This document shows, one piece after another, positions 1 through 38,117 of a stretch of 46,788 bases of DNA. The notes under the pieces are model-generated. The model made no database searches. It was not told the origin of the DNA and was given only the letters and a program-made list of their open reading frames with translations. This DNA is from a virus. Lineage: Duplodnaviria; Heunggongvirae; Uroviricota; Caudoviricetes. Made by a program: the position numbers and the translations under genes. How positions within the stretch are numbered: position 1 is the stretch's first letter; the number at the start of each line of letters is the position of its first letter. The stretch lies in the IMG/VR virus record IMGVR_UViG_2896607866_000013; one strand, 5' to 3'.

Positions 1-585
1 TTACTCCCTGACAGGGTTCGTAGGCCACTCAATATCAGGTGCAGTTGATGTATCAACACGGTTCAGCAACACCCGATACTTTTTCCAGGCTTCCAGCAAT
101 GAGGTTTCTTCCTCCGTTGCAATTTCCAGATCTGCAGCATCCTGAAGCGGCGCAATATGCTCACTGGCTACCTGCATCAGGTTGTTTTTTGTTTCTTCCG
201 CCTCCCGGATCCGGAACAGTTTTTCTGCTTCCGTATCCTTCACCCAGGCTGTGCCGTTCCACTTCTGAAACTCCCCTTCCGGCGATAACCAGGTAACATT
301 TTCCGGTAACGGACCGAGTTCAGAAATAAATAACGCGTCGCCGGAAGCCACGTCATAAACCGTTTTACCCCGATGGTCTTCAAAGAGATGCCACGATGAC
401 TCATCACTGTTGAAAACAGCCACGAAGCCTGCCGGAATATCTAACGGTGCAATATCGGTACTGTTTGCAGGCAGACCTGTATGAGGCGGAATATATGCGT
501 CACCTTCACCAATAAATTCATTAGTTCCGGCCAGCAGATTATAAATTTTTATGGTCCGTGGTTGTTCACTCATTCTGAATGCCAT
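1..585 (-). CDS. tfa: Tail fiber assembly protein (lambda Tfa-like)
   Basis: 194-aa [23 protein letters not shown]...; closely matches recalled lambda Tfa; ATG at 585 overlaps stf stop (ATGA). Confidence 0.85.
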
Positions 586-25184: not shown

Positions 25185-27038
25185 TTATGATGATGCCGGT
25201 GCATTTATCTCCAGCACCAGACTTTCTATCTCAACGCCATACGCTGCATTTTTTGTAACATCCGTCAGCGTCAACGCATTCAGTCCCAGTGTCAGACTGT
25301 CTTTTATGACCTGGAATGCCGGGCCAGCCACTCCATTCAGTTTCGGAGTAACCGTGGCACTGCCGGCGGTGAACACCAGCTCCAGCGTCTGCCAGTCGTT
25401 ACTGTAATTCCCGAACTCGCCCAACTTTGTGTTTCCGGCTTTCTTGTGATGCATCAGATTCAGTTTGCCGTCTGTGGTCTGGGTGAAGAACGACATCAGG
25501 AACGGGTTACCAGTCCCGGTCATCGCCACGACGTCAGGTAACGCTACATCGGTATACAGATAAATTCCCAGACCGAACTGGTTGTTGGTCAGTGCGCCTG
25601 ACAGTCGAAACTTACAGCTCAGTCTGCCACCCCGTGTCAGCAGGGAGACTGCGTCATCCACCGGATGCATCAGGGACCAGGTTTTATTGCTCTGCTTGGC
25701 GATCTTAAATACACCACCCGACAACTGAATTCCGCCGTCCTTAATGGTCCAGCCCTGCGCAGCAGCCTCTCCGGCTGTCGGCAGCAGGGAGATTGTGCGT
25801 ACGGATGCATCTTCAGGCGGCCCCGATGGCGTGTCGCCGCCGGGCGAGGGTTTGATTTCCGGTGCCTTACCACTGATGAAGGCTGAGGTGCGCCCGGCTG
25901 CGTTCAGAATAGCGGTTGCCATACGATCCGGAATAATGCTCCTGCGCGCCCATGAACTGAAATGTGTCGGGCGGTTTGATGATACCTGGTTTCCATTCGT
26001 TCTCGATGCCGCACCGTAATATCCTGATGCCGGAATATCCGGATCTTCTGCCGGCGCGTTAGTGGCGGTATTGACGCCGTTACCGTCTGTCATGAAGGGC
26101 ACAAAATAAACGCCCTCACTCTCCCTGTTTTTGTACGCCCCGTAAATGGTGTTGTACTGCGTGCCGTAGGTGTTTTTCCAGTAATACGTCGTGTCACCAC
26201 AAATCCACGGCACATTTACAGCACTGCCACCATGACACTGCGCGTTAAACACAGTGAGGTCAGCACGAAACTGCTTCAGCATGGCTGTAAACAGCGCAGG
26301 TTGCTGTGCGTAGGTGGCGGCGCTCATGTCAAACTCTCCCTGCATCCAGCACACCGCCAGCAACACATTTTTCGGGTTCTTCTGTAATGCAGCTTTAGTG
26401 CGCGCAATCAGGTCCTGATATAACGGTTTACCCACACCCCAGCGCGCCGAATCCTGGCTGGCCCCCGCGTCCGCACTGAATGTCCCCTCCGCGCCCTGGG
26501 TGAATGCCGAACCACCACGACAGCATGGTACCAGCAGGATCCCCGCGTTATTCGGGATATACGGGAGCAGTTTTTTGGCAATATGTAAGCCCTGGCCGAC
26601 ACAGCCGTACTGCCCTTTGCTCAGGTCTGCCTTCGGATGATTCAGCGTACTCATATCCTGCACATCATGCAGACAGTGGTCAGCCGGGATGATGTCGTTA
26701 TACGTACAACTCTCTCCACCCGGAGTTACCGTGCTGCGGCGCGCCAGCTGTTTAATGCGCGGATCCGGAGCATCGTAAGAATCCGGTAACGGAAGCCCTT
26801 CACCGTAGGCCATGCCGTTGGACTGTCCGGCAAGCACAACCACGTAGAACCAGTCCGGCTCAGATGAAGGGCCGACCTGTGGATCTCCTTCAATAGCCAC
26901 CGCCTGCATCAGTGTGTACGGCGTAATGGCAACCGGTCCGCCATATGGCTGCCAGCCCTCTTTCAGTTTGTGTGTCAGCTTTTCCGCAAGGTCTGACGGC
27001 GACGCCGCCCTGACAACATCATAGTGTTTAAATGCCAT
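25185..27038 (-). CDS. Prophage sialate O-acetylesterase (NanS-p-like, SGNH/DUF303 hydrolase)
   Basis: 617 aa; GQSNG catalytic-Ser motif near N-terminus; same position (downstream of Q-tRNA region, upstream of lysis genes) as the large esterase ORF of Stx phages. Confidence 0.7.
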   Translation of the reverse strand: MAFKHYDVVRAASPSDLAEKLTHKLKEGWQPYGGPVAITPYTLMQAVAIEGDPQVGPSSEPDWFYVVVLAGQSNGMAYGEGLPLPDSYDAPDPRIKQLARRSTVTPGGESCTYNDIIPADHCLHDVQDMSTLNHPKADLSKGQYGCVGQGLHIAKKLLPYIPNNAGILLVPCCRGGSAFTQGAEGTFSADAGASQDSARWGVGKPLYQDLIARTKAALQKNPKNVLLAVCWMQGEFDMSAATYAQQPALFTAMLKQFRADLTVFNAQCHGGSAVNVPWICGDTTYYWKNTYGTQYNTIYGAYKNRESEGVYFVPFMTDGNGVNTATNAPAEDPDIPASGYYGAASRTNGNQVSSNRPTHFSSWARRSIIPDRMATAILNAAGRTSAFISGKAPEIKPSPGGDTPSGPPEDASVRTISLLPTAGEAAAQGWTIKDGGIQLSGGVFKIAKQSNKTWSLMHPVDDAVSLLTRGGRLSCKFRLSGALTNNQFGLGIYLYTDVALPDVVAMTGTGNPFLMSFFTQTTDGKLNLMHHKKAGNTKLGEFGNYSNDWQTLELVFTAGSATVTPKLNGVAGPAFQVIKDSLTLGLNALTLTDVTKNAAYGVEIESLVLEINAPASS

Positions 27039-27232
27039 GAATCCTCCCGGCCGGGATAATATTGTGAGTAAAATGAGGAGCGGGCTGAAGTCCGGAAGTT
27101 ACAGGACAATGGCAGAAGAGAGACAACAGCCCGCAATACGAAAAAGGCCGCGCTATTGCGCAGAGTGATTACTGTCGGATATTATTCGCCAGCTGAAATA
27201 TTACTTCACGTTTTGTTGTTTATTCCTTGCCG

Positions 27233-27260
27233 CCCGCGTCTCCCAGCGCGGGCTTTTTTT
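27233..27260 (+). terminator. + strand terminator-like hairpin in the tRNA/nanS-p spacer
   Basis: CCCGCG-loop-CGCGGG followed by CTTTTTTT on + strand. Confidence 0.4.
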
Positions 27261-27487
27261 GTCCATAAGAAAGCCCCTCCGGAGAGGGGCTGGAGAGTGG
27301 CGCTATGTGCCATTGCATGGTGCCGGGTGCCTCCCGGTGAATTCAGTACCAGCACCTGAATCCGCGATTATCCCATATACCTACTCGCTGATTGCCCCTC
27401 CGCACAGGGGGATTCACCATGCCAGTTTCTTTTAACAAACTCCCCGCAAAACAGACAACTGTCAACCGTCTGAATTGTGAGACATTT

Positions 27488-27512
27488 AAAAAAAGGCCCG
27501 CAAAAGCGAGCC
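27488..27512 (-). terminator. Intrinsic terminator downstream of tRNA cluster
   Basis: GGCUCGC-UUUU-GCGGGCC hairpin followed by UUUUUUU on - strand. Confidence 0.5.
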
Positions 27513-27526
27513 GGGAAAAATAAGTC

Positions 27527-27603
27527 TGGCGCGTTGTACTGGATTCGAACCAGTGACCGATTGCTTAGAAGGCAATTGCTCTGTCCGGCTGAGCTAACAA
27601 CGC
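27527..27603 (-). tRNA. argO: tRNA-Arg (anticodon UCU)
   Basis: 77 nt; 7-bp acceptor stem GCGTTGT/ACAACGC, anticodon loop CTTCTAA, TTCGAAT T-loop, CCA end. Confidence 0.85.
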
Positions 27604-27616
27604 AGGGTACAGATAA

Positions 27617-27693
27617 TGGACCGCCATCGAGGACTCGAACCCCGCGCAACCAGCTTCGAAGGCTGGCGCTCTATCCCGATGAGCTAATGGCGG
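27617..27693 (-). tRNA. argN: tRNA-Arg (anticodon UCG)
   Basis: 77 nt; acceptor CCGCCAT/ATGGCGG, anticodon loop CTTCGAA, TTCGAGT T-loop, CCA end. Confidence 0.75.
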
Positions 27694-27702
27694 TATGTGA
27701 TA

Positions 27703-27778
27703 TGGTGGCCCTTGCTGGATTTGAACCAGCGACCTGGCGATTATGAGTCGCTCGCTCTCACCACTGAGCTAAAGGGCC
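27703..27778 (-). tRNA. ileZ: tRNA with CAU anticodon (Ile2/ileX-like, or Met)
   Basis: 76 nt GGCCCTTTAGCTCAGTGG...ACTCATAATCG...GGGCCACCA; close to recalled E. coli ileX; ileZ-argN-argO order as in Stx-type phages. Confidence 0.8.
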
Positions 27779-27827
27779 GCGCGCAGAATAATAACGTTAC
27801 GGAATTAATACTGCAATCTCATCCGTT

Positions 27828-28877
27828 TCAAACGATTAAATCCTGAACTTCCCTGACTGTCTGCTCAAAACGTCCGGTCTCCAGCTCAACACCAATCGCA
27901 CGACGCCCCAGTGCCATCGCCGCTTTTACCGTTGAACCCGACCCCATGAAAAAATCCGCAACCAGATCACCAGGACGACTACTTGCGCTGATTATCTGCT
28001 GCAGCATTTCTGCCGGTTTTTCGCACGGATGTTTCCCTGGATAGTACTGCACCGGTTTATACGTCCACACATCGGTGTACGGCACCTGCACCGTCACACC
28101 GAAATACCGCCGCAAATTTTTATATTCACTCAGCAGTTCCATATACTGCCGGTTCAGCTCACTGTATGTGCTGACCAGCTGGTGGTGTGGCTTTTCCAGT
28201 TCCCCGCGCTGATGTTTCTCTTCTGCCACCCGGGCAAACAGCGACTGTAATTTCAGATAATCGCTTTCGTTCGGTAGCTGCCACTGACTGGCACTGAACC
28301 AGTGCGGCACCATGTTTTTCTTTCCTGTGGCATCTGCAATCTGTTTTGCCGTTATCCCCAGGGCAGCGCGCGCATCACGAAAGTAAGCAATCAGCGGGGC
28401 CATCACATGCTGTTTCAGTGCCCTGCCCTTCGCCTCATACCCGGCATCTTTCGGACGATACGGCCCCTGATAATGTTCCGCGAACAGAATGCGCTCTGTG
28501 GCGGGGAAATACGCCCGCAGGCTTTCCTTGTTGCATCCGTTCCAGCGTCCGGACGGCTTCGCCCAGATAATATGGTTCAGCACACTGAAGCGTTCACGCA
28601 TCATGATTTCGATATCAGATGCCAGGCGATGACCACAGAACAGGTAAAGACTTCCGGCAGGTTTCAGCACCCGCCAGAACTGCGCCAGACACTGGTCCAG
28701 CCACTTCAGGTAATCATCGTCGCCCTTCCACTGGTTATCCCAGCCCTCAGGCTTCACTTTAAAGTACGGCGGGTCCGTGACTATCAGGTCAACAGAATTT
28801 TCGGGTAACGACCGGATAAATTCCAGGCAGTCGGCGTTGATTAACTCACAACTGGATATTTTTACAGTATTAGCCAT
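27828..28877 (-). CDS. Orphan DNA methyltransferase (N6-adenine/N4-cytosine, beta class)
   Basis: 349 aa; motif IV TDPPYF precedes motif I FFMGSGST; no adjacent restriction gene. Confidence 0.75.
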   Translation of the reverse strand: MANTVKISSCELINADCLEFIRSLPENSVDLIVTDPPYFKVKPEGWDNQWKGDDDYLKWLDQCLAQFWRVLKPAGSLYLFCGHRLASDIEIMMRERFSVLNHIIWAKPSGRWNGCNKESLRAYFPATERILFAEHYQGPYRPKDAGYEAKGRALKQHVMAPLIAYFRDARAALGITAKQIADATGKKNMVPHWFSASQWQLPNESDYLKLQSLFARVAEEKHQRGELEKPHHQLVSTYSELNRQYMELLSEYKNLRRYFGVTVQVPYTDVWTYKPVQYYPGKHPCEKPAEMLQQIISASSRPGDLVADFFMGSGSTVKAAMALGRRAIGVELETGRFEQTVREVQDLIV

Positions 28878-28971
28878 AGATCAATAAGCACTTCTCTGAT
28901 AGGCTCATACCGCTTTTGCGCAAAGCAGATGGGCCTGAGGTTTGCTTGTGACCCCAACGCATGAGCAGATG

Positions 28972-29000
28972 GCTGGTGGGTGCCCCTAACACCCACCAGC
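28972..29000. repeat. Perfect 11-bp inverted repeat (7-nt loop) upstream of the methylase gene
   Basis: GCTGGTGGGTG-CCCCTAA-CACCCACCAGC; no U-tract on either strand. Confidence 0.6.
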
Positions 29001-29011
29001 CGCCCATTTAC

Positions 29012-29042
29012 CACAAATAAAAAAGCCTTCACTGCGGAAGGC
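29012..29042 (-). terminator. Intrinsic terminator at the stop of the small post-Q ORF
   Basis: GCCUUC-CGCAGU-GAAGGC followed by UUUUUUAUUUG on - strand. Confidence 0.55.
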
Positions 29043-29226
29043 GTCTGTAACAACCGAACTGATAGTCTGCCAGACCCGCCATAACCAGCTGGGTCAGTAT
29101 TAACTGGCAGCGTTCGCGTGAAAGGTAAGTATTCTGCGCAATCTCCCCGACTGTCGCCGGTTCGGTGACGCTTAATTCATTAAACACCACTCTGGCGGTT
29201 TCTGTCATATCCTGCTGTTTCAGCAT
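29029..29226 (-). CDS. Hypothetical small protein (about 65 aa), first ORF after tR'
   Basis: ATG at 29226 with AAGGGA SD (MLKQQDMTETARVVFNELSVTEPATVGEIAQNTYLSRERCQLILTQL...); HTH-like by composition only. Confidence 0.45.
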   Translation of the reverse strand: MLKQQDMTETARVVFNELSVTEPATVGEIAQNTYLSRERCQLILTQLVMAGLADYQFGCYRRLPQ

Positions 29227-29348
29227 GTCTTTTTCCCTTTTTCGGTTAACGTGACACACCAATAACTCTTGTCGAAAAAGCCAGCAAGCTGAAAGACAGG
29301 TATTCACCGCCACCAGCACGTTTACTGTACTGGACCGATTTCAGCCAT

Positions 29349-29373
29349 AAAAAAACCCGCTCGCGGCGGGTTT
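29349..29373 (-). terminator. tR'-like intrinsic terminator about 70 nt downstream of Q
   Basis: AAACCCGC-CGCGA-GCGGGUUU followed by UUUUUUU; position matches pR'-qut-tR' of lambdoid late control. Confidence 0.6.
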
Positions 29374-29441
29374 AAGCTGTGTGGCGAAGTAACCACTCTT
29401 AACATACTGACATACTTTTTGCGGACCGCACTAATCATTTT

Positions 29442-29822
29442 TTACTTTTTTAGCAGCCAGTCGTCCATCTCCAGTCTTACCCCCAGCACAGACAAACATC
29501 CGTCAATAAACCCTTCGGCTATCTGCATCTCAATTCGTATTGCTTTTTCGCTTTTCTTTCTCGTCCTGGCTATCTGTCTTTTTGATATTCGCAACAAATA
29601 ATGAGCAATGAGAAGCGAATACTCCTCAGGTTTTTTCTGCTTCAGACGAGCAAGACAGTTTTCAATGATAAGTCCGTCATCATCGCAGCAGGCCGGACGT
29701 GGTTTAGTGGCAGATGGTAAAAGTCCTTTGAATCCGGCAGCGATCGGAGAATAGTCCACCCCGGTGTTACCACTTGCAGCCCATGCCCCCCAGCGTTCAA
29801 GAACCATCTGAATATCACGCAT
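29442..29822 (-). CDS. Q: Late antiterminator Q (QuuD/phage 21-type short Q)
   Basis: ATG at 29822: MRDIQMVLERWGAWAA...PACCDDD... matches recalled DLP12 QuuD N-terminus. Confidence 0.75.
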   Translation of the reverse strand: MRDIQMVLERWGAWAASGNTGVDYSPIAAGFKGLLPSATKPRPACCDDDGLIIENCLARLKQKKPEEYSLLIAHYLLRISKRQIARTRKKSEKAIRIEMQIAEGFIDGCLSVLGVRLEMDDWLLKK

Positions 29823-29839
29823 CAACTTTCTCCACAAAA

Positions 29840-30836: not shown

Positions 30837-31646
30837 TCAATGAACGGTATCGAGCAGCTTTAACAGCTCAGGGAATCGGGATTCGAAGAAATGCGGCTGC
30901 GTCTCGCGCGGATTTGCGGGACTGGTGATGTTCTTGCCGAACATGCAGCCTTTCGCTGTCAGCGACCAGAATTTTTTGATGTTGTTAATCGCGGTACGGC
31001 TGTATCGTTCGCGCTGCTCGACGATCCCCAGCTTCACCATCTGGTGATATGCCTGATTAGCCGTCAGGCGGATACCATACTGTTTCAGCAGTGCACTCAG
31101 TGACAGTGTCGGGCGACTTGAGCCATCGTGTGCATCAGCAGGAGCATCAATGGCATAGCGTGGTGCCAGATTCGGTAAGCCAACAGCCTCCTGGAGTTTC
31201 TGACAGGCACCAAGCACAGATGAGTTAGACAGGTTTAATTCCCGACGCATAAAGTCCAGCAGAATCACACCAGCCTGCATCTTGTCAGCAGCCTGTCCGG
31301 ATAATTTTTCCGGTGTGCTGGTTACCATGTCGAAAGTACGGATCACCTTCAGATGGAATGACGGGCTGATCCACATTGCATAGGCATACACCAGTTCCTT
31401 GCAGACATAAGTTCCCCGTTCATTTCCCCCATGAATCACACTCACCGGGTCAACACCCAAATTCTGGGTGTTGGTCAATTCATGAACAAGTTCAACAGTT
31501 TGTTGGCTGGAAAGAAACTTTCCTGGCTCCTTGGTTCTGGCATTTGCACCAGATGCTACTGCTGCGCGATGTAGATCGTTCAGGCTGTAACGCCCATAAA
31601 CATCACGACGAACTTCAATACCATCAATGACCATCAGATTATTCAT
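30837..31646 (-). CDS. KilA-N domain protein
   Basis: ATG at 31646 with GGAGAA SD; N-terminal MNNLMVIDGIEVRRDVYGRYSLNDLHRAA... typical of KilA-N. Confidence 0.55.
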   Translation of the reverse strand: MNNLMVIDGIEVRRDVYGRYSLNDLHRAAVASGANARTKEPGKFLSSQQTVELVHELTNTQNLGVDPVSVIHGGNERGTYVCKELVYAYAMWISPSFHLKVIRTFDMVTSTPEKLSGQAADKMQAGVILLDFMRRELNLSNSSVLGACQKLQEAVGLPNLAPRYAIDAPADAHDGSSRPTLSLSALLKQYGIRLTANQAYHQMVKLGIVEQRERYSRTAINNIKKFWSLTAKGCMFGKNITSPANPRETQPHFFESRFPELLKLLDTVH

Positions 31647-31665
31647 ACTTCGTTTCTCCTCTTGA

Positions 31666-32055
31666 TCAGGCGGCTGCACCCGCCGTTTTCTCGTACTTAC
31701 TGATAGTGATCTCGACCTTCCCTTTCGGGATAACCGGTCCCCACTCCACCAGCATTCTTTTCACCTGACTGTCGTCTTCCCACACACCCGCGTGGGTCAG
31801 GGCGTCAAACAGCGCCTTGTTATAGTTGTCCAGATCGCGGATCCTGTTATCCGGAGGAAACAACACGATCTCCACTGAAGCAGGTGCCGACGTTGGTTTC
31901 GGCAGACGACGTAACTGCTCAATGATGGCGGCACACGCCGCGCTCTGAAATTTTCGCCCCGCCTCGCTTATCAGGCTCTTACCAGCAAATGCCCCTTTGT
32001 TGGGGTGTCGCCAGTACGTGTTCACGCTGGGCGGAAAAGGCAGTATTAGCTTCAT
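31666..32055 (-). CDS. rusA: Holliday junction resolvase RusA
   Basis: 129 aa; PPSVNTYWRH...RDLDNYNKALFDALTHAGVWEDDSQV matches RusA catalytic Asp motifs. Confidence 0.8.
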   Translation of the reverse strand: MKLILPFPPSVNTYWRHPNKGAFAGKSLISEAGRKFQSAACAAIIEQLRRLPKPTSAPASVEIVLFPPDNRIRDLDNYNKALFDALTHAGVWEDDSQVKRMLVEWGPVIPKGKVEITISKYEKTAGAAA

Positions 32056-34019: not shown

Positions 34020-34107
34020 AATCAGGCGCTGAATCGGGTTATCGAAAGCACATCCGCACACAAACTGAAAACAGTTCACGCCACACCTCCCAGACGCTTT
34101 GAAGTGG

Positions 34108-35276
<1,169 letters not shown>

Positions 35277-35345
35277 TGGAGCACCTGTGTTGTTCTGAGG
35301 TGAGCATATCACCTCTGTTCAGGTGGCCAAATTCAGTGTGCCACT

Positions 35346-35552
35346 TCACTTAAACATTTTTCCGGAGCAAAAGGCTATAAGCGGCATACTGACGCGGTAA
35401 TTACGGCCCAGCGGTTCACAAATCACCTTCTGACATTCACGGTCAACCAGGCTAACACGTAGAACATGCCCTGCAGGTGTGGTGTACCACTGACCCGGAC
35501 GAGGACAACGGAAAGTCTGATTGGTAAACCGTTTGAAAATATTCCGGATCAT
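35346..35552 (-). pseudogene. Small gene sharing the MIRNIFK.FTN leader of the Rha array, 3' end split by IS911
   Basis: ORF stop codon TGA is the first 3 nt of the IS911 end; without the IS the frame continues 6 codons (..KMFKRLGGVA*). Confidence 0.5.
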
Positions 35553-36421
35553 TTACGCCCCCTTACCTCTGAAGGGTTCAGCGACAAATTTATGAGGCAG
35601 GCCAGTGCCGAAGCATCATTAATATAGTCATACAAGCTAACAGCCAGCGGAGATTCGGCTTTTGCCAACATAGGATAAAGCTGCTGCAGCCAGACCTGAT
35701 GAATTGATGAAATGTAGGAATAGAGAACGCTGGCGTTATGTGCAACATCGCTCAGTACAGAGGGATTTGAAAGCTGTTTCTCCATCTGGTTAAAGGCATT
35801 GATGTATGCCTCTTTGAACTGGGCAGCACGTTTACCCGTGAAGCCCATGGCAAGAAACGCAAAACCGTCGCGGGTGATTTGGTAACAAGGGAGTTTGCGG
35901 CCTGATGCGTCGGTGTATTCACTTAACACAAAATTGTGTTCAGTAAATTCAGCGGAACATTCGAGGTTTCTAATTCTATCTAAAACCCGCTCATGCCGTT
36001 TAGTAAAGTAATTAGCTACTGCAAGAGATGTGGTGACAACGCGACCATTGATAATCGTGATTTCAGGGTGAGATTGGGTTGGGAGAGTAGTCATGGTGAC
36101 AGCCCCTATGTTGAATTCAATGAACTCACCACCAAGGCTTTCCACGACCATATAGGTGGTGAGACGTACAGGGGTGGAAATACCGGTCAACATAGAACCC
36201 GGCCCAACCGAAGTTGGCCCTGCACGCCCCACCATAATTTGGGCGTAACGATGCTCATGACACGAAAAAACCGCATGAGCGCGGTTGTGCTCTATATTGA
36301 ATTTCGGGTTTCCACGCCCGGCACCCGCTTTATAAGGTGCCTGAACAGTGTAACGTCCCGGAATGGCAGAATCAATGTGCTGGTGGCGATTGGTAAACAG
36401 TTTGAAAATATTCCGGATCAT
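35549..36421 (-). CDS. Rha-family phage regulatory protein (copy 1 of tandem pair)
   Basis: 290 aa; C-terminal half has Rha signature VTTSLAVANYF.KRH..VL..IR.LE...GRKLPCYQITRDGFAFLAMGFTGKRAA.FKEAYINAFNQMEK. Confidence 0.65.
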   Translation of the reverse strand: MIRNIFKLFTNRHQHIDSAIPGRYTVQAPYKAGAGRGNPKFNIEHNRAHAVFSCHEHRYAQIMVGRAGPTSVGPGSMLTGISTPVRLTTYMVVESLGGEFIEFNIGAVTMTTLPTQSHPEITIINGRVVTTSLAVANYFTKRHERVLDRIRNLECSAEFTEHNFVLSEYTDASGRKLPCYQITRDGFAFLAMGFTGKRAAQFKEAYINAFNQMEKQLSNPSVLSDVAHNASVLYSYISSIHQVWLQQLYPMLAKAESPLAVSLYDYINDASALACLINLSLNPSEVRGRK

Positions 36422-37569
36422 TTACGCCCCCTTACCTCTGAAGGATTCAGCGACAAATTTATGAGGCAGGCCAGCGCCGAAGCATCATTAATATAGTCAT
36501 ACAAGCTAACAGCCAGCGGAGATTCGGCTTTTGCCAACATGGGATAAAGCTGCTGCAGCCAGACCTTGTGGATTACCGACAGGTGGGAGTAAAGCACGCT
36601 GGCGTTATCTGCGGCATCGCTCAGCGTGGATGGCTTTGAAAGCAGTTTTTCCATCTGGTTAAAGGCATTTATGTATGCCTCTTTGAACCGGGCAGCACGT
36701 TTACCAGTGAAGCCCATAGCAAGGAACGCGAAGCCATCGCGGGTGATTTGATAGCAAGGTAGTTTGCGGCCTGTGCAATCGGTGTAATCACTCACCGAAA
36801 AATTGCGGGCAGTGAATGATGCGGAGCATTCAAGCGTGCGGATCTTTTTCAGTACATCGTCATGACGTTTGGAGAAGAAGTTGGCAACAGCTAGGGATGA
36901 AGTAACAGCCTGACCATCAACGATGGCAATTTCAGGTTGAGTGAGGGTTGGGAGAGTAGTCATAGTGACAGCCCCGGTAGTCAGTTTTTTAGAAAACTCA
37001 CCACATGGGACGCCAATCACAGAGGTGGTGAGACGTACAGGGTTGGCGTTACCGGAGACTACCGAACCCGGCCCGACCGAAGTCGGCCCTGTACGCCCCA
37101 CCATAATTTGGGCGTAGCAATGCTCATGACACGAAAAAACCGCATGAGCGCGGTTATGCTCAGTAATCAATTTCAGGACGCCAATCCCGGCACCCGCTTT
37201 ATAAGGTGCCTGAACAGTGTAACGTCCCGGAATGGCAGAATCAATGTGCTGGTGGTCCTTCACACTCAACAAAATCACGCCTGAATTTCCACAAAGGACT
37301 AAAGCACTCATGCTGGTAGTCTTTGCGAAGATAGATAACGCGCTGTGTTTCTGGCTCCCAACGAATAACATGGACATAAAGCCCTCTTCCGTCACGAAAC
37401 CAGCGGTTAAGTTCCTGCACAACTCGCCCCCCACAGTCAGGTAAAGTTCTCTGTGGTTACTTACAGCCAGGTGATCTGGTAATCTGCATTCATGCCGTAA
37501 CAACAGGTGTTCAGCGACACTGACCACCAGCTGTTGCGACAAACGGTTATTTGCCGTTAAACTGTTCAT
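36418..37569 (-). CDS. Rha-family phage regulatory protein (copy 2, with unique ~93-aa N-terminal extension)
   Basis: 383 aa; C-terminal 290 aa paralogous to copy 1 (~870-bp tandem DNA repeat); ATG immediately after the CII-like stop. Confidence 0.6.
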   Translation of the reverse strand: MNSLTANNRLSQQLVVSVAEHLLLRHECRLPDHLAVSNHRELYLTVGGELCRNLTAGFVTEEGFMSMLFVGSQKHSALSIFAKTTSMSALVLCGNSGVILLSVKDHQHIDSAIPGRYTVQAPYKAGAGIGVLKLITEHNRAHAVFSCHEHCYAQIMVGRTGPTSVGPGSVVSGNANPVRLTTSVIGVPCGEFSKKLTTGAVTMTTLPTLTQPEIAIVDGQAVTSSLAVANFFSKRHDDVLKKIRTLECSASFTARNFSVSDYTDCTGRKLPCYQITRDGFAFLAMGFTGKRAARFKEAYINAFNQMEKLLSKPSTLSDAADNASVLYSHLSVIHKVWLQQLYPMLAKAESPLAVSLYDYINDASALACLINLSLNPSEVRGRK

Positions 37570-38117
37570 GCGTTAGTTTCTCCACAGACACAAAACGCCA
37601 CGACGCCCGGAGCTGCACACTCGCGGGCGTCACTCTTTTCTGGAGCGCAGAAGATTTTGTAGACCAGTGCTGCATGCTCCTGGAGCTTCGAAATTGACAG
37701 ATACAACTCATCATTAATTGCTGTCTGCTCGTGTGGCTCCACGACCCCATCTTCGATTGCCGAACGAATCTGCTTTGAGTAATTCCCGATCTGTTCGATG
37801 ACTTCCAGCAGGCGCTGGTTTATATCGGCGTTCTCTACTTCCTCAATTTCAGGAAGCGATACGAACACCCCACCAGCAGACTGTGCGACAGCATCCGCAA
37901 TGTAGTGAGTGCCAGCAGCACGCTGTAAAATCATTGCCCATCCCAGCGGGAAAATCTGATCGCCATCTGCACGAAGGCGGTTGAATAAAGCGTTCTCTGT
38001 TACATCCAGCCACTCAGCAGCTTCAGCGTAACCCCCCGGCAACGCCGCGATAGTTTTTCTGACAGCTTTCACGTACCACTCAGGCTGTTTTTCCACTTTC
38101 CAGTGATGATTACCCAC
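37566..38117 (-). CDS. CII-like regulatory protein (tentative)
   Basis: 183 aa directly downstream of cro; weak resemblance to recalled phage 186 CII-type proteins; family call is inference. Confidence 0.35.
   Translation of the reverse strand: MGNHHWKVEKQPEWYVKAVRKTIAALPGGYAEAAEWLDVTENALFNRLRADGDQIFPLGWAMILQRAAGTHYIADAVAQSAGGVFVSLPEIEEVENADINQRLLEVIEQIGNYSKQIRSAIEDGVVEPHEQTAINDELYLSISKLQEHAALVYKIFCAPEKSDARECAAPGVVAFCVCGETNA

What the first reader, a model, noticed from the sequence alone, without database searches (positions are those of the whole stretch)
35346..37569. Tandem ~870-bp duplication producing two Rha-family genes plus a third truncated repeat unit
The two Rha-family ORFs share a near-identical C-terminal ~290 aa, and the DNA repeats in tandem with mosaic divergence. 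Each unit starts with the same MIRNIFK.FTN junction, which also begins the small gene later hit by IS911, so three repeat boundaries sit about 869 bp apart. Copy 2 has a unique ~93-aa N-terminal extension. In both copies the Rha signature lies in the C-terminal half, which I recall as atypical.
Basis: seen in the sequence. Interest (0 to 1): 0.5.

Follow-up and report, generated by a model that had tools for sequence, protein, structure and literature searches.

The report
Tandem antisense-RNA-controlled Rha antirepressor cassettes
The repeat is real, but each 869-bp copy is a complete phage switch of a known kind (promoter, two small regulatory RNAs and a 181-aa Rha gene), and the two copies carry different RNA recognition sequences, so they should be controlled independently.

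Summary
The 869-bp tandem repeat is confirmed: two full units at 36388-37256 and 35519-36387, about 82% identical and mosaic. The gene model is not supported. Each unit is a complete IsrK/C4 antisense-RNA cassette on the minus strand: promoter, IsrK sRNA with terminator, C4 antisense RNA, C4 target sites over the ribosome-binding site, and a 181-aa Rha gene whose Rha domain is N-terminal. The "383-aa" and "290-aa" ORFs run through these RNA genes. The "unique 93-aa N-terminus" is an alternative frame over a DUF4222 gene.

The two cassettes have different C4 loops, each matched by its own IsrK and leader sites. Predicted cognate duplexes are -9 to -15 kcal/mol, against -2.5 to -6.4 for cross pairs. 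Across 28 leader variants these sites co-vary three ways. The same illegitimate junction joins four different cassette combinations, so the duplication happened once and cassettes were later exchanged. It is rare: 13 of 5426 complete E. coli genomes.

The module type is known from P1/P7 immI, P4 and Gifsy-1 isrK. The tandem pairing of different specificities appears undescribed.

One puzzle remains: the rha frame is kept free of stop codons through the RNA genes.

The parts
37566..38117 (-). Context: ymfL / CII-like (Phage_CP76) gene. Its stop overlaps the ATG of the 383-aa ORF (ATGA).
   Evidence: Pfam PF06892 55.5 bits. Third-position-biased variation [11,9,44]. ATGA overlap.
37241..37420 (-). 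DUF4222 gene (59 aa). This is the real coding frame under the 'unique N-terminal extension'. Its last 4 codons and stop lie inside repeat unit 2.
   Evidence: PF13973 51 bits (cut-off 27) and phrog_1343 E=4e-36. Variable columns [12,9,38] in this frame against [9,38,12] in the long-ORF frame.
36388..37256 (-). Repeat unit 2: the upstream cassette, specificity type T1.
37216..37244 (-). Inferred IsrK promoter of cassette 2: -35 TTGATT (37239-37244), 17-nt spacer, -10 TACACT (37216-37221). The IsrK 5' end lies 7 nt downstream.
   Evidence: Sequence. Nearly invariant in 28 leader variants. 8 of 12 consensus matches, so below the scanner's threshold. The homologous PisrK is shown experimentally in Gifsy-1 (PMC4825925).
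37133..37209 (-). IsrK-2 sRNA. It carries a1 (TTGGCGT, 37178-37184), b1 (GATTACTGAG, 37159-37168) and an intrinsic terminator (37138-37155).
   Evidence: RF01394 59.3 bits (gathering score 50). Terminator. Fold. Coordinates.
37021..37108 (-). C4-2 antisense RNA. The b' loop is UUCGGUAGUC (37057-37066) and the a' single strand is ACGCCAA (37043-37049).
   Evidence: RF01695 82.3 bits (gathering score 45). MFE -47.7 kcal/mol, z=-6.0, canonical fold.
36972..37016 (-). C4-2 target sites in the rha-2 leader: a2 (TTGGCGT, 37010-37016, in a hairpin loop) and b2 (GACTACCGGGG, 36972-36982, which includes the Shine-Dalgarno).
36418..36963 (-). rha-2: 181-aa Rha-family protein, a putative antirepressor or pro-lytic regulator.
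   Evidence: PF09669 107 bits at aa 21-106. TIGR02681 103 bits. Variation [37,27,83].
36378..36421 (-). Duplication junction. The first 11 codons of the downstream small gene (MIRNIFKLFTN, ATGA-coupled to the rha-2 stop) are joined in frame to the last codons of DUF4222 and the cassette promoter (…ACCAATCG|CCACCAGCA…).
35519..36387 (-). Repeat unit 1: the downstream cassette, specificity type T2.
36347..36375 (-). Inferred IsrK promoter of cassette 1 (-35 at 36370-36375, -10 at 36347-36352).
36264..36340 (-). IsrK-1 sRNA. It carries a1 (GTGGAAA, 36309-36315), b1 (TCAATATAGAG, 36290-36300) and a terminator (36269-36286).
   Evidence: RF01394 61.6 bits. Terminator. Fold.
36152..36239 (-). C4-1 antisense RNA. 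The b' loop is UUCUAUGUUGA (36187-36197) and a' is UUUCCAC (36174-36180).
   Evidence: RF01695 82.4 bits. MFE -44.5 kcal/mol, z=-5.2.
36103..36145 (-). C4-1 target sites: a2 (GTGGAAA, 36139-36145) and b2 (TCAACATAGGGG, 36103-36114, over the Shine-Dalgarno).
35549..36094 (-). rha-1: 181-aa Rha-family protein.
   Evidence: PF09669 109 bits at aa 21-106. TIGR02681 103 bits. Variation [18,15,49].
35346..35552 (-). Small gene (phrog_1153), ATGA-coupled to the rha-1 stop. It is truncated after codon 68 by IS911, and the stop codon comes from the IS end.
34097..35351 (.). IS911 insertion of ~1249 bp (34100-35348), flanked by a 3-bp AAG target duplication (34097-34099 and 35349-35351).
   Evidence: Comparison with the IS-free locus L003. 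orfA and orfB ORFs.

Best explanation
What was duplicated is a self-contained RNA-controlled switch, not just a gene. Read on the minus strand, each 869-bp unit contains:
- a sigma-70-type promoter;
- a 77-nt IsrK sRNA that carries sites a1 and b1 and ends in an intrinsic terminator;
- an 88-nt C4-type antisense RNA that exposes b' in a hairpin loop and a' in a single-stranded stretch;
- leader sites a2 and b2, with b2 covering the Shine-Dalgarno;
- a 181-aa Rha-family gene.

The mechanism is inferred by homology with P1/P7 immI, P4 and Gifsy-1 isrK. Transcripts that read through the IsrK terminator are processed to C4. C4 pairs with a2/b2 and blocks rha translation. Short IsrK carries the same target sequences (a1/b1), pairs with the a'/b' region and relieves the block. 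The Rha protein then acts as an antirepressor or pro-lytic regulator.

The two cassettes in this window have different a and b sequences. IsrK-2/C4-2/leader-2 and IsrK-1/C4-1/leader-1 should therefore form two orthogonal switches that control two diverged Rha proteins (81% identical; 72% over the N-terminal Rha-domain part).

The array arose once, by an illegitimate join between codon 11 of the downstream small gene and the end of the DUF4222 gene. Cassettes were later swapped by homologous recombination with other phages.

Shown here: the RNA genes, their folds, the three-way complementarity and covariation, the coding frames, the single junction and the rarity. Inferred: RNA processing, repression and activation in vivo, Rha acting as an antirepressor, and any selective benefit of two specificities.
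For: RNA genes. Rfam finds C4 (82.4 and 82.3 bits, gathering score 45) and isrK (61.6 and 59.3 bits, gathering score 50) once in each unit, on the gene strand. Both C4 copies fold into the family structure (z = -5.2 and -6.0). Terminators lie at 36269-36286 and 37138-37155.

Recognition sites. Differences between the copies concentrate in a1, b1, b', a', a2 and b2, and are complementary within each cassette.
- b'×b2 duplex energy: cognate -15.3 and -12.1 kcal/mol, cross -4.7 and -4.2.
- a'×a2 duplex energy: cognate -10.5 and -9.1 kcal/mol, cross -6.4 and -2.5.

Covariation over 28 distinct leaders from 80 IMG/VR loci and other loci:
- a1:a' has compensatory changes at 5 of 7 pairs, with 99% of cells paired.
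- b1:b' has them at 7 of 11 pairs, with 90% paired.
- b':b2 has them at 7 of 11 pairs, with 96% paired.
- Slid controls give ~40% paired, and 0 of 500 shuffles reach the observed covariation score.

Same layout in studied phages. The order promoter-a1-b1-c4-a2-b2-gene matches the annotated P1 immI region. Gifsy-1 shows isrK then C4 directly upstream of anrP. There, PisrK, terminator read-through, a processed ~80-nt RNA (STnc1160) and IsrK-dependent translation were shown experimentally (PMC4825925).

Coding frames. Third-position bias appears only in the 181-aa rha ORFs and the DUF4222 ORF. The Rha domain sits at aa 21-106 of the short ORFs.

Evolution. An identical 75-nt junction precedes all 18 downstream cassettes, although they form four different type combinations (T1+T2, T9+T4, T4+T6, T9+T6). 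The two members of each array always differ in b specificity. A single cassette is the norm. The junction is present in 13 of 5426 complete E. coli genomes and 8 IMG/VR contigs.
Against: There are no expression data for this locus. The promoter matches only 8 of 12 consensus positions and was not called by the scanner.

The cargo differs from that of every studied system. P1 Ant1 has an ANT/KilAC domain and needs icd. Gifsy-1 AnrP has an ORF6N domain and shows no BLASTP similarity to this Rha (E=3.3). The antirepressor role of Rha is therefore an analogy, and no solved structure exists.

Duplex energies ignore intramolecular structure, Hfq and kinetics. Some non-cognate types are predicted to cross-react (T1 b' with T0 b2, -13.0 kcal/mol).

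The rha frame is kept open through the RNA genes. A purely non-coding leader does not explain this.

IS911 lies just downstream, so the prophage may be defective and the cassettes relics in this particular genome.
Confidence: 0.8

Rival explanations
1. Two paralogous long Rha-family proteins (383 and 290 aa) were created by tandem gene duplication. Each has an N-terminal domain of unknown function ('Ash') and an unusually C-terminal Rha domain.
For: Both ORFs are open and start at ATGA overlaps with the preceding gene. Pfam Phage_ASH scores above threshold (44.9 and 37.7 bits, cut-off 26). PGAP and phage annotators call the 383-aa form. The frame is free of stops in all 28 leader variants, with 0 polymorphic stop sites against 13 and 14 in the other frames. 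All indels are multiples of 3.
Against: The 'Ash' stretch coincides with the IsrK and C4 RNA genes and contains an intrinsic terminator. Phage_ASH also matches the old P4 'cI' ORF exactly over the P4 C4-type RNA, and the P4 immunity factor is an RNA (PMC4825925 discussion; PMC3632133). Substitutions in the leader lack third-position bias and follow RNA pairing instead. The first 93 aa overlap DUF4222, and variation follows that frame. A frameshifted variant (L073) and a deletion variant (L021) lose the extension but keep the cassette. A conserved Shine-Dalgarno/ATG precedes the Rha domain.
Confidence: 0.1
2. A neutral or decaying duplication. The second cassette is a redundant copy on its way to becoming a pseudogene, as PGAP labels it in E. 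coli S88. The sequence differences are drift with no functional meaning.
For: The array is rare (13 of 5426 genomes). PGAP marks the downstream copy in S88 as 'incomplete, missing N-terminus'. An IS element sits next to the array here.
Against: Both 181-aa rha ORFs are intact, and their variation is third-position biased. In each cassette all six recognition elements changed together and stay complementary; drift would break this. Four different cassette combinations share the junction, and all keep two intact members of different specificity. The S88 'pseudogene' label arises because PGAP expects the long ORF.
Confidence: 0.12
3. Independent acquisition. The two cassettes came from two different phages and were joined by recombination in this lineage, rather than arising by duplication.
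For: Identity is mosaic (91%, 75% and 88% blocks). Type T2 occurs as a single cassette in other contigs, and types are reshuffled among arrays.
Against: The junction is a non-homologous join (codon 11 of the small gene to the DUF4222 3' end) and is identical in all 18 arrays, whatever the cassette type. It therefore formed once. The present pair is best explained by an old duplication followed by allele replacement through flanking homology. This rival describes the second step, not the origin.
Confidence: 0.15

Closest known systems
Bacteriophage P1/P7 immI region (c4 antisense RNA - icd - ant1/ant2)
   Same: The order of elements is the same: promoter, a1, b1, C4 RNA, a2, b2 over the ribosome-binding site, then the regulated gene (P1 annotation). 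It belongs to the same Rfam C4 family. Specificity lies in the a and b sequences. From prior knowledge of Citron & Schuster 1990, cited in PMC2864571 and PMC3632133, these sequences differ between heteroimmune P1 and P7.
   Different: There is no icd-like coupling ORF; rha follows b2 directly. The cargo is a Rha-domain protein, not an ANT/KilAC protein. An IsrK-type terminator separates a1/b1 from C4. The cassette sits in the early-right operon of a lambdoid prophage. There are two heterospecific cassettes in tandem. The cargo frame is open through the RNA genes, which is not so in P1.
Gifsy-1 isrK - orf45 (STnc1160) - anrP locus of Salmonella (Hershko-Shalev et al. 2016, PMC4825925)
   Same: The RNA leader is homologous: isrK followed by C4 immediately upstream of a ~180-aa regulator. 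It has its own promoter, and terminator read-through gives the mRNA. This is the only experimentally dissected lambdoid example. The authors noted a Shigella dysenteriae version in which orf45 is fused to the downstream gene.
   Different: AnrP is an ORF6N protein with no detectable similarity to this Rha. The Gifsy-1 cassette lies after Q, not between cII and the replication genes. orf45 is out of frame and ends at an AUGA overlap. There is a single cassette, and the b specificity is different.
Satellite phage P4 immunity (seqA - CI RNA - seqC) and N15 anti-immunity (CA RNA - antC)
   Same: P4 has isrK-like (seqA) and C4-like (CI) RNAs in the same order. They are described as structural homologues in PMC3632133 and PMC4825925. 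As here, an ORF lies open across the RNA gene (the old 'cI' ORF, which hits Phage_ASH).
   Different: P4 CI acts mainly by causing premature transcription termination of the replication operon. The cargo genes are different, and there is a single copy. N15 was not examined here.
Single-copy isrK-C4-rha cassettes of mEp460, SfV-like, cdtI, ST64B and Stx phages
   Same: These have the same cassette in the same position (after ymfL/cII, before the small gene and the replication genes) at 81-91% nucleotide identity. Their authors annotate it as one ~340-385-aa 'Rha/antirepressor' gene.
   Different: They carry one cassette. The window and 13 of 5426 E. coli genomes carry two, of different specificity.

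Membership tests
C4 antisense RNA (Rfam RF01695) | Covariance-model score at or above the gathering score | tested here: met
   82.4 and 82.3 bits against 45; full-length matches 1-87
C4 antisense RNA (Rfam RF01695) | Long closing stem enclosing two hairpins, with b' in the second loop and a' single-stranded | tested here: met
   The MFE folds reproduce the family structure (z = -5.2 and -6.0). The stems show compensatory changes across 28 variants and are 100% paired.
C4 antisense RNA (Rfam RF01695) | a' and b' are complementary to a2/b2 downstream (b2 over the ribosome-binding site) and to a1/b1 upstream | tested here: met
   Perfect 7-nt (a) and 9-11-nt (b) complementarity in both cassettes. 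Three-way covariation. a':a2 was checked by duplex energy only, because the alignment is out of register there.
C4 antisense RNA (Rfam RF01695) | Excised from a longer transcript (by RNase P in P1) and represses translation in trans | not testable with these tools
   Needs RNA mapping and reporter assays
IsrK sRNA (Rfam RF01394) | Covariance-model score at or above the gathering score | tested here: met
   61.6 and 59.3 bits against 50
IsrK sRNA (Rfam RF01394) | Ends in a Rho-independent terminator | tested here: met
   7-bp stem followed by a T run at 36269-36286 and 37138-37155
IsrK sRNA (Rfam RF01394) | Has its own promoter | tested here: inconclusive
   TTGATT-17-TACACT lies 7 nt upstream of the model start and is almost invariant. 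It matches only 8 of 12 positions and was not reported by the scan.
Rha family (Pfam PF09669 / TIGR02681) | HMM score above the curated cut-off | tested here: met
   107 and 109 bits against 29.9; 103 bits against 45.95
   aa 21-106 of the 181-aa ORFs. It appears C-terminal only in the composite 383-aa and 290-aa ORFs.
P1-type immI module | A small icd-like ORF, translationally coupled, lies between b2 and the antirepressor | tested here: not met
   The rha ATG follows b2/Shine-Dalgarno directly. P1 has icd.
P1-type immI module | Antirepressor with an ANT/KilAC domain | tested here: not met
   P1 Ant1 hits PF03374. The window proteins hit only Phage_pRha.
Gifsy-1 isrK-orf45-anrP locus | Cargo homologous to AnrP | tested here: not met
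   BLASTP E=3.3. AnrP has an ORF6N domain.
Gifsy-1 isrK-orf45-anrP locus | orf45 is a separate frame ending in an AUGA overlap with the cargo start | tested here: not met
   Here the frame across C4 is continuous with rha. In Gifsy-1 the cargo frame closes 27 nt upstream, and a 135-nt frame corresponds to orf45.
Pfam Phage_ASH (PF10554) | HMM score above the cut-off | tested here: met
   44.9 and 37.7 bits against 26. However, the matched stretch is the IsrK/C4 RNA region, and the family also matches the P4 'cI' ORF over the CI RNA. Membership therefore says little about a protein.
Antirepressor (functional class) | Binds and inactivates a phage repressor, or induces the prophage | not testable with these tools
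   Inferred only from the kind of gene that C4-type RNAs control in P1, N15 and Gifsy-1

The most novel reading that the evidence does not exclude
The IsrK/C4 leader may be both a pair of regulatory RNAs and an obligatorily translatable stretch. Selection keeps the rha frame open through it, and every upstream context supplies an in-frame ATG; in the two contexts found in this window that ATG is coupled to the preceding gene. Under this reading, ribosomes arriving on early-operon transcripts read straight through the terminator and the C4 structure. This would do one of two things: make a C4-independent long Rha isoform, or protect the operon from termination so that the downstream replication genes are expressed. 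In the lysogen only the cassette promoter would fire, and the short Rha would be held off by C4. The in-frame MIRNIFK junction would be what allowed a second cassette to be tolerated. Two heterospecific cassettes would then let a phage escape, and a lysogen resist, two antisense-immunity types at once.
Probability: 0.3. Interest if true: 0.65.

Novelty: new variant of a known kind. Interest (0 to 1): 0.45.

Why it matters
Three points matter.

1. Annotation. A gene annotated in thousands of E. coli, Shigella and Salmonella prophages as a 340-385-aa 'Rha/antirepressor' is really a DUF4222 gene, two small-RNA genes and a 181-aa Rha gene. The Pfam 'Ash' domain found in it appears to be a translated RNA.

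2. A family of specificities. Lambdoid prophages carry at least nine interchangeable antisense specificities of one switch, against the two known from P1 and P7. This window has two of them side by side. That gives a natural set of predicted orthogonal RNA repressor, anti-repressor and target triples. They can be tested directly for cross-immunity between prophages and reused as orthogonal translational switches.

3. An unexplained constraint. The stop-free frame through functional RNA genes is a concrete, testable case of overlapping RNA and translation constraints.

None of this changes the known mechanism class, so the importance is moderate.

Tried and rejected
- Tandem Repeats Finder found nothing relevant, because its longest period is 500.
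- The promoter scan did not report the IsrK promoter, which matches 8 of 12 positions. The promoter is therefore inferred from position, conservation and the Gifsy-1 experiments.
- I first assumed the Rha proteins were AnrP homologues. BLASTP (E=3.3) and Pfam (ORF6N) rejected this.
- I asked whether the open frame across C4 is general to the family. It is absent in P1 and Gifsy-1.
- Scanning one genome per species for the 20-nt junction gave only 6 hits, all in unrelated MAGs (Bacteroidia, Saprospirales, Bifidobacterium), which I take to be chance matches. This says nothing about distribution outside E. coli and Shigella.
- No solved structure resembles the Rha protein by sequence.
- a':a2 pairing could not be counted with the count of structure pairs, because a 3-nt indel puts the a2 columns out of register. 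Duplex energies were used instead.
- Structure prediction of the long ORF was considered and dropped. RNA-driven covariation would contaminate any alignment, and only window or database-returned sequences may be submitted.
- An assembly artefact was rejected. The exact 290-aa ORF occurs in 43 blocks of the public-assembly index, including several independent NCBI assemblies.
Full report
1. The observation

All genes of interest are on the minus strand. The repeat finder reports three co-linear direct-repeat blocks with an exact 869-bp register: 35519-35818/36388-36687 at 91%, 36149-36386/37018-37255 at 88%, and 35991-36106/36860-36975 at 75%. A gap-free alignment shows homology starting at CCACCAGCACATTGATT (37256/36387) and ending at TTTACCAATC (36388/35519). 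Outside these limits it falls to chance level.

There are therefore exactly two units, 36388-37256 and 35519-36387, and no third partial unit. The motif MIRNIFK.FTN occurs twice (ATG at 36421 and 35552). It is the start of the small gene downstream of the array, and its first ~33 nt were part of the duplicated segment.

The two long ORFs (383 and 290 aa) are 76% identical over 286 aa. Both contain a Phage_pRha domain.

IS911 (~1249 bp, with a 3-bp AAG target duplication) truncates the small gene after codon 68. An otherwise identical prophage without the IS has the 74-aa gene.

2. What each unit really contains

Rfam places two RNA genes inside the N-terminal ~100 codons of each long ORF, on the same strand:
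- an isrK sRNA at 36264-36340 and 37133-37209 (61.6 and 59.3 bits; gathering score 50);
- a C4 antisense RNA at 36152-36239 and 37021-37108 (82.4 and 82.3 bits; gathering score 45).

Each IsrK ends in an intrinsic terminator. Each C4 folds into the family structure with z = -5.2 and -6.0.

A TTGATT-17-TACACT promoter-like element lies 7 nt upstream of each IsrK 5' end and is nearly invariant among relatives. It is weak by consensus (8 of 12) and the scanner did not call it.

Downstream of C4, a conserved Shine-Dalgarno (GGAGG or GGGG) and ATG open a 181-aa ORF (36963..36418 and 36094..35549). In this ORF the Rha domain is at aa 21-106 (TIGR02681).

3. Which frames are coding

Differences between the two copies fall [21,17,62] on codon positions 1, 2 and 3 in the 181-aa ORF, but [15,19,23] in the leader.

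The 'unique 93-aa N-terminal extension' of the 383-aa ORF overlaps a 59-aa DUF4222 gene (37420..37241; 51 bits against 27; phrog_1343) in another frame. Across related loci, variable columns fall [12,9,38] in the DUF4222 frame and [9,38,12] in the long-ORF frame (p = 2e-6). A frameshifted relative (L073) and a 291-nt deletion relative (L021) lose the extension but keep the cassette.

The Pfam 'Phage_ASH' hit over the leader is uninformative about a protein. The same family matches the old P4 'cI' ORF exactly where the P4 C4-type RNA maps, and the P4 immunity factor is an RNA.

So the composite ORFs are not two-domain Rha proteins, and the Rha domain is not unusually placed.

4. The regulatory logic and the difference between the copies

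The order promoter-a1-b1-(terminator)-C4-a2-b2/SD-gene equals the annotated P1 immI region (a1, b1, c4, a2, b2, icd). It also equals the Gifsy-1 isrK locus, where Rfam likewise finds isrK followed by C4 just upstream of anrP.

In Gifsy-1 the following were shown experimentally (PMC4825925):
- the isrK promoter drives the operon;
- some transcripts read through the terminator;
- an ~80-nt RNA (STnc1160) is processed from them;
- the mRNA is translationally silent until short IsrK pairs with the orf45/STnc1160 region.

In the window, almost all differences between the two leaders lie in six short elements and are matched within each cassette:
- Cassette 2: a1 and a2 are UUGGCGU against a' ACGCCAA. 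b1 is GAUUACUGAG and b2 is GACUACCGGGG, against b' UUCGGUAGUC.
- Cassette 1: a1 and a2 are GUGGAAA against a' UUUCCAC. b1 is UCAAUAUAGAG and b2 is UCAACAUAGGGG, against b' UUCUAUGUUGA.

b2 includes the Shine-Dalgarno. Predicted duplex energies for b'×b2 are -15.3 and -12.1 kcal/mol for cognate pairs, against -4.7 and -4.2 for cross pairs. For a'×a2 they are -10.5 and -9.1 for cognate pairs, against -6.4 and -2.5. The two cassettes are therefore predicted to be orthogonal.

5. Comparative support

A protein-guided scan of IMG/VR gave 80 loci. Together with E. coli and phage records they yield 28 distinct leaders that fall into 13 distinct element sets, of which at least 9 are distinct specificity types.

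On the alignment, the inter-element pairings co-vary:
- a1:a' has 5 of 7 pairs changed on both sides, with 99% of cells paired.
- b1:b' has 7 of 11, with 90% paired.
- b':b2 has 7 of 11, with 96% paired.

Slid controls give about 40% paired, and no shuffle reaches the observed covariation score. The internal C4 stems also show compensatory changes and are 100% paired.

6. Origin and distribution

The single cassette is the norm. 2440 of 5426 complete E. coli genomes have a match, and the best hits span 1375 bp, which is one copy. The same holds for mEp460, cdtI, ST64B and Stx phages.

The junction sequence is complete in only 13 E. coli genomes (for example S88) and 8 IMG/VR contigs.

All 18 downstream cassettes are preceded by the identical 75-nt junction …GGGGGCGTAAATGATCCGGAATATTTTCAAACTGTTTACCAATCG|CCACCAGCA…. 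Yet the arrays combine four different type pairs (T1+T2 here, T9+T4 in S88, T4+T6, T9+T6), and the two members always differ in b specificity.

A non-homologous join of this kind is unlikely to recur. I conclude that there was one ancestral duplication, followed by cassette replacement through the highly conserved flanks. This also explains the mosaic identity.

Both rha ORFs are intact and under purifying selection. This argues against a decaying copy, despite PGAP's 'pseudogene' label in S88.

7. What the Rha proteins do

This is the weakest link. C4-type RNAs control antirepressors or lytic-switch genes in P1 (Ant), N15 (cited) and Gifsy-1 (AnrP induces the prophage). However, P1 Ant1 carries ANT/KilAC. 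AnrP carries ORF6N and is not detectably similar to this Rha.

The RNA leader is thus a portable control module attached to different cargo. I infer that the cargo here is an antirepressor or pro-lytic regulator, with moderate confidence.

The two proteins differ most in the Rha domain (72% aa identity, against 90% in the C-terminal part). They may therefore have different targets; this was not tested.

8. An unexplained feature

Although the leader does not evolve like a protein, the rha frame is free of stop codons through the whole 287-293-nt leader in all 28 variants. It has 0 polymorphic stop sites, against 13 and 14 in the other two frames.

Three further observations point the same way:
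- All three indels are multiples of three.
- Five different upstream contexts each provide an in-frame ATG. These include the duplication junction and the L021 deletion.
- The frame is also open in ST64B, cdtI, Stx1a phages and P4, but not in P1 or Gifsy-1.

In the window, cro-like, ymfL, the 383-aa ORF, the 290-aa ORF and the small gene are linked by short coding overlaps (the last three joins are ATGA).

My working idea is that ribosomes on early-operon transcripts must be able to read through the cassette. This would serve to override the IsrK terminator and Rho polarity ahead of the replication genes, or to make a C4-independent long Rha isoform. It is not tested.

9. Verdict

What is present is a tandem pair of known-type IsrK/C4 antisense-RNA switches, each driving a 181-aa Rha gene, with different and predicted-orthogonal specificities.

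The module class is already known (P1/P7, P4, N15, Gifsy-1; lambdoid occurrences are noted in PMC3632133). I did not find the following described in the searched literature:
- the tandem heterospecific arrangement;
- the breadth of specificity alleles;
- the stop-free frame through the RNA genes.

I rate it a new variant of a known kind, of moderate interest.

Noticed in passing
window 36152-36353 and 37021-37222; L095 (phage P4) 8168-8584: Pfam family Phage_ASH (PF10554) matches conceptual translations of the IsrK/C4 RNA region here. In P4 it matches the historical 'cI' ORF exactly over the CI (C4-type) RNA. The family therefore looks like a translated RNA gene rather than a protein domain.
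   Followed up: partly
window 34097-35351: IS911 (~1249 bp, 3-bp AAG target duplication) is inserted in the 3' end of the phrog_1153 small gene. It lies between the rha cassettes and the replication genes (the 99-aa and 327-aa ORFs), so it is probably polar on them and the prophage may be replication-defective.
   Followed up: partly
window 37241-37420 (-): A 59-aa DUF4222 gene is hidden under the 5' part of the 383-aa ORF. Gene callers annotate one or the other in different assemblies of the same sequence (compare L003 with L007/L010).
   Followed up: yes
window 25185-29837: The late region resembles an Stx-phage backbone without stx. A Q-like antiterminator ORF (29442..29837) is followed by a tRNA-Met/Arg/Arg cluster (27527-27778), then an STnc100 RNA (27261-27451), then directly a 617-aa esterase-like ORF (25185..27038).
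   Followed up: no
window 44-242 (-): Rfam match to IS009 RNA (225 bits) at the left edge of the window.
   Followed up: no
L025 540-844 (same contig as L100): This downstream cassette is a recombinant. Its IsrK b1 site is of type T2, but its C4 b' loop and b2 site are of type T3. Its IsrK should therefore pair with its own C4 only through the a site.
   Followed up: partly
L021 1182-1500: This relative has a 291-nt in-frame deletion that removes DUF4222. The deletion fuses the ymfL-coupled ATG (MNSLTANNRL) directly to the cassette promoter and leader, and the long frame is preserved.
   Followed up: partly
L111 (Gifsy-1) 34131-34214: The Rfam C4 model matches the region that the Gifsy-1 literature calls orf45/STnc1160. 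The processed ~80-nt RNA there is therefore a C4-family antisense RNA. The searched text of the paper compares it to P4 CI and does not mention P1.
   Followed up: partly
window 30837-31679 (-): A further antirepressor-like ORF (280 aa; KilA-N according to the gene table of the identical locus L003) lies downstream in the same prophage. The element may thus carry three antirepressor-type genes.
   Followed up: no
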